Shown one piece after another: positions 12,388 through 13,605 of a stretch of DNA of 64,000 nt; position 1 is the first letter of the stretch; every line of letters begins with the position of its first letter. A program made the position numbers and the translations under genes. This DNA comes from Escherichia coli (lineage in GTDB: Bacteria > Pseudomonadota > Gammaproteobacteria > Enterobacterales > Enterobacteriaceae): the NCBI RefSeq assembly GCF_013122565.1, contig NZ_CP053258.1, one strand, 5' to 3'. A model generated the notes under the pieces. That model ran no database searches, was not told the DNA's origin, and saw nothing but the letters and a program-made list of their open reading frames with translations.

Positions 12388-13605
12388 ATGACGGAACAAG
12401 AAAAAACCTCCGCCGTGGTTGAAGAGACCAGGGAGGCCGTGGACACCACGTCACAACCTGTCGCAACAGAAAAAAAGAGTAAGAACAATACCGCATTGAT
12501 TCTCAGCGCGGTGGCTATCGCTATTGCTCTGGCGGCGGGCGTCGGTTTGTATGGCTGGGGTAAACAACAGGCCGTCAATCAGACCGCCACCAGCGATGCC
12601 CTGGCTAACCAACTGACGGCATTGCAAAAAGCCCAGGAGAGCCAAAAAGCCGAGCTGGAAGGCATTATCAAGCAACAGGCTACGCAGCTTGAACAGGCGA
12701 ATCGTCAGCAAGAAACGCTGGCAAAACAGTTGGATGAAGTCCAACAAAAGGTCGCCACCATTTCCGGCAGCGATGCTAAAACCTGGCTGCTGGCTCAGGC
12801 CGATTTTCTGGTGAAACTCGCAGGACGGAAGCTGTGGAGCGATCAAGACGTCACGACCGCTGCAGCGTTGCTGAAAAGTGCAGATGCCAGCCTGGCGGAT
12901 ATGAATGACCCGAGTCTGATTACCGTTCGTCGGGCAATTACCGATGATATCGCCAGCCTTTCTGCGGTATCGCAGGTGGATTATGACGGCATCATCCTTA
13001 AGCTGAATCAGCTTTCTAATCAGGTAGATAACCTGCGTCTGGCCGATAATGACAGCGATGGTTCGCCGATGGATTCCGACGGTGAAGAACTTTCCAGTTC
13101 CATCAGCGAATGGCGTATCAATCTGCAAAAAAGCTGGCAGAACTTTATGGACAACTTCATTACGATTCGCCGTCGTGATGATACCGCCGTACCGCTGTTA
13201 GCGCCAAATCAGGATATCTATCTGCGCGAAAATATTCGCTCTCGCCTGCTGGTCGCTGCACAAGCTGTACCGCGTCATCAGGAAGAGACTTATCGCCAGG
13301 CGCTGGAGAACGTCTCCACCTGGGTACGTGCTTACTACGATACTGATGATGCCACCACCAAAGCATTCCTCGACGAGGTGGACCAGTTAAGCCAGCAAAA
13401 TATCTCGATGGATCTTCCGGAAACCCTGCAAAGCCAGGCGATGCTGGAAAAACTGATGCAGACTCGCGTGCGTAACCTGCTGGCACAACCGGCAGCGGAG
13501 ACAACGGAAGCTAAACCTGCACCTGCACCTGCACCTGCACCTGCACCTGCACCTGCACCTGCACCGCAAGCTGATACTCCGGCAGCCGCGCCGCAAGGAG
13601 AATAA
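12388..13605 (+). CDS. hemX: HemX-family membrane protein (405 aa) with C-terminal (Pro-Ala)8 tract
   Basis: Single TM segment [21 protein letters not shown], coiled-coil Gln-rich region, [16 protein letters not shown] near C-terminus. Confidence 0.9.
13516..13563 (+). repeat. Perfect hexanucleotide tandem repeat (CCTGCA)x8 inside hemX
   Basis: Counted directly: eight in-frame CCTGCA units encoding (PA)8. Confidence 0.95.

What the first reader, a model, noticed from the sequence alone, without database searches (positions are those of the whole stretch)
13516..13563. Perfect (CCTGCA)x8 microsatellite inside hemX encoding a (Pro-Ala)8 linker
Eight uninterrupted, in-frame hexamer units is unusually long for a coding tandem repeat in an enterobacterial core gene and is prone to slipped-strand expansion or contraction in multiples of 2 aa without frameshifting. 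The tract sits in the C-terminal tail of HemX, so copy number would tune linker length. I suspect, but cannot confirm, that the count differs between strains.
Basis: seen in the sequence. Interest (0 to 1): 0.3.

Follow-up and report, generated by a model that had tools for sequence, protein, structure and literature searches.

The report
Known hemX hexamer VNTR (MLVA locus CVN014)
The eight-copy CCTGCA repeat at the end of hemX is real and its copy number varies widely between E. coli strains, but it is the well-known strain-typing marker CVN014, sitting in a floppy protein tail where length changes appear to be tolerated.

Summary
A perfect (CCTGCA)x8 lies at 13516-13563, in frame in hemX (12388-13605), and encodes (Pro-Ala)8 at residues 377-392 of 405.

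In 5,425 complete E. coli genomes the locus is always present. A systematic sample of 60 gave 14 length alleles (Nei diversity about 0.89). Sixteen fetched sequences showed 0 and 2-18 units; every tract present was pure CCTGCA, and flanks differed by at most a SNP. O157:H7 strains alone span 3-17 units.

It is not new. The published primers of MLVA locus CVN014 (Lindstedt 2007) flank the tract at 13492-13511 and 13627-13650. They give a 159-bp amplicon, which the published formula calls allele 8. CVN014 is described as the most variable locus of that scheme.

The tract lies in a 38-residue C-terminal segment with no predicted structure, and only 13 residues follow it. It is therefore a tail, not an inter-domain linker. 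Other Enterobacteriaceae have an Ala/Pro-rich tail encoded by mixed codons. The same hexamer also expanded in three Citrobacter species and, shorter, in Raoultella.

Best explanation: replication slippage in a length-tolerant disordered tail. Predicted hemY translation-site accessibility does not change with copy number. Interest is low.

The parts
13516..13563 (+). Perfect (CCTGCA)x8 microsatellite, the variable part of VNTR locus CVN014. It encodes (Pro-Ala)8, HemX residues 377-392.
   Evidence: Polymorphic in whole units across E. coli.
12388..13605 (+). hemX coding sequence (405 aa plus stop). The protein has an N-terminal transmembrane helix, a long helix at 61-126, a helical HemX domain and a disordered C-terminal tail.
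   Evidence: ORF; PF04375; NF008173; AlphaFold2 model.
13489..13602 (+). Coding region of the Ala/Pro-rich C-terminal tail (residues 368-405). It is low-complexity and predicted unstructured.
   Evidence: pLDDT below 50 and no secondary structure from residue 368, with the last helix at 348-366; the tail is present in the HemX of all 78 species-representative loci analysed, varies in length and sequence, and ends in QGE or QGEQ.
13492..13511 (+). Binding site of CVN014 primer 'R' (GCAGCRGGGACAACGGAAGC). The window has one mismatch.
   Evidence: Primer sequence from PMC8143711 Table 1.
13627..13650 (-). Binding site of CVN014 primer 'F' (TCCCCGCAATCAGCAAMACAAAGA), inside the first codons of hemY. 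With the other primer it gives a 159-bp amplicon; (159-111)/6 = allele 8.
   Evidence: Sizing formula from PMC8143711.
13564..13605 (+). Conserved 3' flank of the tract ([13 protein letters not shown] plus stop). Its last codons CAA GGA GAA carry the hemY Shine-Dalgarno sequence (AAGGAG, 13596-13601).
   Evidence: (conserved across genera, including synonymous sites).
13608..14804 (+). hemY, which starts 2 nt after the hemX stop codon and 45 nt after the tract.

Best explanation
This is a coding microsatellite (VNTR) already used for strain typing as locus CVN014 of the generic E. coli MLVA scheme.

Shown here:
- The tract is a pure head-to-tail array of one hexamer.
- Its copy number differs between genomes only by whole units.
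- Its flanks and the downstream hemY are nearly invariant.
- It varies even inside one clonal serotype.

Inferred:
- The tract gains and loses units by slipped-strand mispairing during replication. Mismatched hairpins built on the TGCA palindrome in every unit may help stabilise the slipped state.
- Because the unit is two codons, every change is in frame and only lengthens or shortens a Pro-Ala run.
- The run sits in a disordered periplasmic C-terminal tail of HemX, with no folded domain after it, so length changes are tolerated (neutral or nearly so) and accumulate.
- The array grew from a 1-2 unit CCT-GCA seed that many Escherichia and Citrobacter species still carry.
For: Identity with CVN014:
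- Both published primers flank the tract, and the published size formula gives allele 8, the counted number of units.

Polymorphism:
- 5,425 of 5,426 complete E. coli genomes carry the locus.
- An evenly spaced sample of 60 gives alleles 0, 2-13 and 16, with Nei diversity about 0.89.
- Sixteen fetched sequences match the span-derived counts exactly. Fifteen have pure CCTGCA tracts of 2, 3, 4, 5, 6, 7, 9, 10, 11, 12, 13, 15, 16, 17 or 18 units; one has lost the tract in a larger in-frame deletion.
- O157:H7 strains alone carry 3, 12, 15 and 17 units by sequence, and 13 and 16 by matched span.

Agreement with the literature:
- CVN014 is called the most variable locus (PMC3877011).
- 9 alleles, range 4-15, Nei 0.83 (PMC3519732).
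- Alleles 2-11 within ST131 (PMC3407997).
- An allele spectrum of 2-12 similar to my sample (PMC5217547).

Slippage rather than selection for the sequence:
- All units are identical, with no synonymous variants.
- CCT is a minor proline codon in this operon (10% against 67% for CCG).
- Both DNA strands fold into TGCA-based hairpins (-8.6 and -10.4 kcal/mol, z -4.0 and -2.4).

Tolerance of length change:
- The tract lies in residues 368-405, which have pLDDT below 50 and no secondary structure.
- Tails range from about 19 to 54 residues across the 78 loci analysed.
- One strain lacks the tract and five more codons but keeps an intact annotated hemX.
- hemX is deletable in K-12 (Keio mutant used in PMC12282077).

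Origin from a seed:
- Many Citrobacter and Escherichia species have 1-2 units. Three Citrobacter species have 9-14 units and Raoultella has 3-4. Other genera use mixed codons.
Against: - Neutrality is inferred, not measured; no fitness or phenotype data were available for different alleles.
- The allele spectrum has a broad mode at 5-8 units and an upper limit near 18. That could reflect selection on length as well as mutational bias.
- The collection of complete genomes is biased towards K-12 derivatives, O157:H7 and clinical clones, so allele frequencies are approximate.
- The AlphaFold2 model is of modest overall quality (mean pLDDT 60), and low confidence is only indirect evidence of disorder.
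- The mutation mechanism itself was not observed.
Confidence: 0.9

Rival explanations
1. Adaptive length tuning. The stiff Pro-Ala run acts as a spacer or ruler that sets how far the conserved C-terminal peptide (…TPAAAPQGE) of the periplasmic, Mic60-like HemX reaches. Lineages would then be selected for different lengths.
For: - An Ala/Pro-rich tail ending in QGE or QGEQ is kept in all 78 loci analysed.
- The same hexamer expanded in Escherichia, three Citrobacter species and Raoultella.
- O157:H7 strains listed mostly carry long alleles (12-17).
- HemX is described as a distant Mic60 homologue (bioRxiv 10.1101/2022.06.14.496148).
Against: - The conserved end overlaps the hemY Shine-Dalgarno sequence and is conserved at synonymous sites too. 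The constraint may therefore act on the RNA, not the peptide.
- Tail sequence and length drift freely between genera.
- Copy number ranges from 3 to 17 within one serotype, and from 2 to 11 within ST131, which looks like mutational noise.
- A natural in-frame deletion removes the tract entirely.
- No partner or phenotype is known.
Confidence: 0.07
2. Regulatory role for hemY. Copy number changes mRNA structure or the spacing upstream of the hemY start, 45 nt downstream, and so tunes hemY translation.
For: - The tract lies just upstream of the hemY ribosome-binding site.
- The hemY Shine-Dalgarno sequence and AUG are predicted to sit in a hairpin, so hemY may depend on translational coupling to hemX.
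Against: - Partition-function folding with 0-20 units leaves the predicted unpaired probability of the Shine-Dalgarno sequence (0.01) and of the initiation region (0.31) unchanged.
- The hairpin pairs the Shine-Dalgarno sequence with hemY codons, not with the tract.
- The 39 nt between tract and stop codon are constant.
- The tract is translated, so ribosomes would unfold it in any case.
Confidence: 0.02
3. Phase-variable contingency locus. Repeat changes switch hemX on and off.
For: High mutability of the tract.
Against: - The unit is 6 nt, so no change can shift the frame.
- All 16 fetched alleles keep hemX open and annotated as an intact CDS.
- The tract is not in a promoter.
Confidence: 0.01

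Closest known systems
CVN014, a VNTR locus of the generic E. coli MLVA scheme (Lindstedt et al. 2007, J Microbiol Methods 69:197, pmid 17291612; extended by Lobersli et al. 2012)
   Same: It is the same locus. Both primers flank the tract, the unit is 6 bp, and the offset of 111 bp reproduces the counted 8 units. The high polymorphism found here matches the published allele spectra.
   Different: Nothing about the locus differs. The open-access typing papers I could read treat it as an anonymous marker. They do not name hemX, the Pro-Ala tail or its structural context: text searches for hemX with VNTR or MLVA found no relevant paper. The window has one mismatch in primer R.
In-frame 6-bp VNTRs used for typing other enterobacteria (for example the O157:H7 MLVA loci and the Salmonella Typhimurium STTR loci)
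   Same: Short perfect hexamer arrays that change by whole units through slippage. They are fast enough to vary within clones and are used as epidemiological markers (PMC3768571; PMC5183578).
   Different: This is a different genomic locus. I could not show that any O157-specific scheme uses the hemX tract. Primers recalled from memory gave no match in the window, which is weak evidence.
Pro/Ala-rich extended segments of envelope and multidomain proteins (the OmpA hinge, the TonB Pro-rich spacer, the linkers of the E2 lipoyl domains; from my general knowledge)
   Same: Alternating Pro-Ala composition, expected to be extended and without folded structure. The location is periplasmic, inferred from the N-terminal KKSK segment followed by a transmembrane segment.
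   Different: Those segments join two functional domains. Here only 13 unstructured residues follow the tract, so it does not link domains. No function of the tail is known.

Membership tests
CVN014 MLVA locus | Both published primers bind on either side of the repeat, in convergent orientation | tested here: met
   Primer R at 13492-13511 (+, 1 mismatch) and primer F at 13627-13650 (-, 0 mismatches). Each has a single hit in the window and none in 100 shuffles.
CVN014 MLVA locus | 6-bp unit and 111-bp non-repeat offset, allele = (amplicon-111)/6 | tested here: met
   The amplicon is 159 bp, and (159-111)/6 = 8, the counted number of units.
CVN014 MLVA locus | Highly polymorphic among E. coli strains | tested here: met
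   14 alleles in a sample of 60 genomes, Nei diversity about 0.89. The range seen was 0-18 units.
Microsatellite / VNTR generated by slippage | Head-to-tail identical units, with length differences between strains confined to whole units and conserved flanks | tested here: met
   16 fetched genomes: 15 carry pure CCTGCA tracts of 2-18 units, with flanks identical or differing by a single SNP; one has lost the tract in a larger in-frame deletion.
Microsatellite / VNTR generated by slippage | Measurable gain or loss of units within a growing population | not testable with these tools
   This needs deep amplicon sequencing or mutation-accumulation lines. Indirect support comes from 3-17 units within O157:H7 and alleles 2-11 within ST131 (PMC3407997).
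Phase-variable contingency locus | Repeat changes shift the reading frame or alter promoter spacing, giving on/off expression | tested here: not met
   The unit is 6 nt and lies inside the coding sequence. All alleles keep an intact annotated hemX CDS.
Inter-domain Pro/Ala-rich linker | A folded domain on each side of the Pro/Ala segment | tested here: not met
   The last helix ends at residue 366. Residues 368-405 have pLDDT below 50 and are coil, and only 13 residues follow the tract. The Pfam domain ends at residue 363.
HemX family (PF04375 / NF008173) | Full-length match above the curated cut-off, within the hemCDXY gene order | tested here: met
   PF04375 scores 360.9 bits against a cut-off of 25.9. 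NF008173 scores 720.4 bits against a cut-off of 313. Gene order.
Uroporphyrinogen-III C-methyltransferase (the product name in annotations) | A tetrapyrrole methylase catalytic domain | tested here: not met
   Pfam finds only the HemX domain and no methylase domain. The model is all-helical with a long helix at 61-126. The name is historical (Sasarman 1988, cited in PMC2704936).

The most novel reading that the evidence does not exclude
The length of the Pro-Ala run is not neutral. On this reading HemX is a Mic60-like inner-membrane protein whose rigid, variable tail sets the reach of its conserved C-terminal peptide towards a periplasmic or outer-membrane partner. The tract would then be a fast 'tuning knob' under lineage-specific selection, for example the long alleles seen in many O157:H7 strains. 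The separate expansions in Citrobacter and Raoultella would be convergent.
Probability: 0.05. Interest if true: 0.45.

Novelty: already known. Interest (0 to 1): 0.1.

Why it matters
The finding matters little as a discovery. The locus has been used since 2007 as the most discriminating marker of the generic E. coli MLVA scheme.

Three modest points come out of this work:
- The anonymous marker CVN014 is tied explicitly to the disordered Pro-Ala tail of HemX. That explains why such a hypervariable tract is tolerated in a core gene.
- Complete genomes show the allele range (0 and 2-18 units) and the purity of the tract.
- The same hexamer has expanded separately in some Citrobacter and Raoultella species from a shared short seed. 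This is a small, clean example of how a microsatellite arises in a coding region.

In practice, hemX protein lengths differ between strains for this trivial reason. These differences should not be read as functional divergence, and short-read assemblies or cgMLST allele calls at hemX may be unstable.

Tried and rejected
- **Literature by gene name.** Text searches for hemX with VNTR and hemX with MLVA returned one Salmonella paper. It lists hemX only as the site of a SNP, so they gave no link. The link came from searching CVN014 and testing its primers.
- **O157-specific schemes.** I tested whether the PulseNet O157 MLVA primers, recalled from memory, bind in the window. None did, even allowing 5 mismatches. 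This is weak evidence because the primer sequences were not verified, and the paper I read lists no primers or gene locations.
- **Effect on hemY translation.** Folding with 0-20 units gave no change in the accessibility of the Shine-Dalgarno sequence or the start region, so I rejected this reading.
- **Conserved hairpin around the hemY start.** The pairs are conserved, but 11 of 12 show no compensatory change. The covariation term is -0.46 and the local fold has z = -1.1, so this is inconclusive.
- **Antisense ORF.** The ORF at 13387..13596 (-), 69 aa with an (Arg-Cys)n run, is a by-product of the repeat and was not pursued.
- **Full allele tally.** An exact tally over all 5,425 genomes was not possible, because the tool lists at most 60 rows. 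I used the evenly spaced 'spread' sample instead.

Full report
**1. The observation**

The sequence at 13516-13563 is CCTGCA repeated eight times without a single deviation. Tandem Repeats Finder reports 13515-13565, period 6, 8.5 copies, 100% matches.

The tract begins exactly 376 codons after the ATG of the ORF 12388..13605 (+). It is therefore read as CCT-GCA, giving (Pro-Ala)8 at residues 377-392 of a 405-residue protein.

The protein is HemX:
- Pfam PF04375 covers residues 130-363, E 3.9e-108.
- NCBIfam NF008173 covers the full length, 720 bits against a cut-off of 313.
- The gene order is cyaA< hemC hemD hemX hemY.

No other perfect repeat with a unit longer than 3 nt reaches four copies in the 64-kb window. 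The chance expectation for 42 successive period-6 matches is of the order of 1e-21 by my own arithmetic.

**2. Does copy number differ between strains?**

Yes. A 288-nt query (the tract plus 120 nt on each side) matched 5,425 of 5,426 complete E. coli genomes, always under hemX and hemY.

In the evenly spaced sample of 60 rows, the matched span differed from 288 nt in multiples of 6. This corresponds to the following alleles:

| Units | 0 | 2 | 3 | 4 | 5 | 6 | 7 | 8 | 9 | 10 | 11 | 12 | 13 | 16 |
|---|---|---|---|---|---|---|---|---|---|---|---|---|---|---|
| Genomes | 1 | 10 | 2 | 4 | 8 | 10 | 6 | 6 | 3 | 3 | 2 | 3 | 1 | 1 |

Nei diversity is about 0.89.

I fetched 16 of these loci. In every case the span-derived number was right, and every tract present was pure CCTGCA, with flanks identical or differing by one SNP.
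- The tracts had 2 (K-12), 3, 4, 5, 6, 7, 9, 10, 11, 12, 13, 15, 16, 17 and 18 units.
- One strain (NCTC11023) has lost the whole tract and five further codons in an in-frame deletion, yet keeps an annotated intact hemX.
- An artificial 24-unit query ranked the longest alleles first. The largest listed was 18 units (strain 2009C-4687).

Within the clonal serotype O157:H7 alone I saw 3, 12, 15 and 17 units by sequence, and 13 and 16 by matched span. K-12 derivatives all had 2. The HemY protein accession was identical in 15 of the 16 fetched genomes, while the HemX accession changed with the tract.

**3. It is a known locus**

Text searches linking hemX to VNTR or MLVA found nothing relevant. 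However, CVN014 of the generic E. coli MLVA scheme is described as a 6-bp locus and the most variable of the scheme.

Its primers, reprinted in PMC8143711, bind the window on either side of the tract:
- Primer R at 13492-13511 (+, one mismatch).
- Primer F at 13627-13650 (-, no mismatch).

They flank the tract in convergent orientation. The amplicon is 159 bp, and the published formula (size-111)/6 gives 8, the counted number of units. The tract is therefore CVN014.

The primary references are Lindstedt et al. 2007 (pmid 17291612) and Lobersli et al. 2012 (pmid 22088357); citations were taken.

Published data agree with mine:
- Nine alleles, range 4-15, Nei 0.83 in non-O157 STEC (PMC3519732).
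- Alleles 2-11 within ST131 (PMC3407997).
- A spectrum of 2-12 repeats with peaks at 2, 5, 6, 8 and 9 in Swedish ESBL isolates (PMC5217547).
- Outbreak isolates share one allele (PMC3877011). The tract is thus stable over weeks to months but not over the life of a clone.

**4. Where the tract sits in the protein**

An AlphaFold2 model built on 59 orthologues is only moderately confident overall (mean pLDDT 60). It is clear about the end of the protein: the last helix is 348-366, and residues 368-405 have pLDDT below 50 and no secondary structure. Only 13 residues ([13 protein letters not shown]) follow the tract.

The N-terminus carries KKSK just before the single hydrophobic segment (residues about 36-56). 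By the positive-inside rule the bulk of the protein and its tail are therefore periplasmic; this is inference.

The tract is part of a floppy tail, not a linker between domains.

HemX has no methylase domain and is all-helical. The product name 'uroporphyrinogen-III C-methyltransferase' is historical. Its function is unsettled:
- It is described as a distant Mic60 homologue lacking the mitofilin domain.
- It is deletable in K-12, and the deletion strain is less sensitive to gentamicin.

**5. Comparison across Enterobacteriaceae**

I retrieved 80 species-representative loci and analysed the 78 that held the full gene. Every HemX ends in an Ala/Pro-rich low-complexity tail of about 19-54 residues that finishes in QGE or QGEQ. 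Otherwise the tail sequence is not conserved.

Codon by codon:
- Salmonella, Klebsiella, Enterobacter, Kluyvera and others encode their Ala/Pro residues with mixed codons and have no repeat.
- Many Citrobacter and some Escherichia species carry one or two CCT-GCA units.
- Long pure arrays occur in Escherichia (E. albertii 6, Escherichia sp. E1V33 7) and in three Citrobacter species (9, 13 and 14 units). A short array of 3 units occurs in Raoultella ornithinolytica.

CCT is a minor proline codon in this operon (10% against 67% for CCG).

The picture is a short seed that crossed the threshold for slippage in a few lineages. It is not a sequence selected for its coding properties.

Both DNA strands of the tract can fold into mismatched hairpins through the TGCA palindrome present in each unit (-8.6 and -10.4 kcal/mol; z -4.0 and -2.4). 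Such hairpins could stabilise slipped intermediates (inference).

**6. Rivals**

- **Regulation of hemY.** The tract ends 45 nt before the hemY ATG, and the last hemX codons carry the hemY Shine-Dalgarno sequence. Folding with 0-20 units leaves the predicted accessibility of the Shine-Dalgarno sequence and the start region unchanged. The Shine-Dalgarno sequence pairs with hemY codons, not with the tract. This rival has no support.
- **Phase variation.** This is excluded because a 6-nt unit cannot shift the frame, and all alleles keep the gene intact.
- **Adaptive tuning of tail length.** This cannot be excluded, but nothing requires it. The conserved C-terminal codons are conserved at synonymous sites as well, which points to the hemY initiation region rather than to a peptide motif. 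Variation within clones looks like mutational noise.

**7. Verdict**

The feature is already known as CVN014.

The best explanation is replication slippage of an in-frame hexamer in a length-tolerant, disordered periplasmic tail (confidence about 0.9). Neutrality and the slippage mechanism are inferred; the polymorphism, the purity of the tract, its position and its identity with CVN014 are shown. Interest is low.

Noticed in passing
window 10000-17000 and 40000-47000: The window is only 97.1% and 97.6% identical to the best of 5,426 complete E. coli genomes over two 7-kb stretches. It is 95.8% identical to Escherichia sp. MOD1-EC7003 around hemX. The source therefore seems to be a divergent Escherichia lineage rather than a mainstream E. 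coli strain.
   Followed up: partly
window 14845-15444 (+): A 199-aa ORF between hemY and aslA has two hydrophobic segments and no Pfam or NCBIfam match. The corresponding gene is annotated as a hypothetical protein in strain NY1601. Only 3,692 of 5,425 genomes cover at least 80% of the 7-kb query, so part of this neighbourhood may be variable.
   Followed up: no
window 13588-13655 (+): The hemY Shine-Dalgarno sequence and AUG are predicted to lie in a hairpin formed with hemY codons about 6-11. The pairs are conserved in 21 genera but almost without compensatory changes. The last eight hemX codons are conserved across genera even at synonymous sites. This suggests, but does not prove, translational coupling of hemY to hemX.
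   Followed up: partly
L020, L024, L025 (Citrobacter sp. Awk4, NCU1, R56) and L071 (Raoultella ornithinolytica), hemX 3' ends: The same CCT-GCA hexamer has expanded to 14, 9 and 13 units in three Citrobacter species and to 3 units in Raoultella. Related species carry only 1-2 units or mixed codons. The same microsatellite therefore appears to have arisen repeatedly from a shared seed.
   Followed up: partly
L005 (E. coli NCTC11023), hemX 3' end: A natural in-frame deletion removes the whole tract plus CCGCAAGCTGATACT, between two short CC repeats (AAACC|…ACTCC|GGCAGCC). HemX is left without any Pro-Ala run.
   Followed up: partly
window 12388-13605 (hemX): The standard product name 'uroporphyrinogen-III C-methyltransferase' is not supported. 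There is no methylase domain, and the model is all-helical with one transmembrane segment and a 66-residue helix.
   Followed up: partly
window 13387-13596 (-): An antisense ORF of 69 aa contains an (Arg-Cys)n run. It is simply the reverse-complement reading of the repeat and is very unlikely to be a gene.
   Followed up: no
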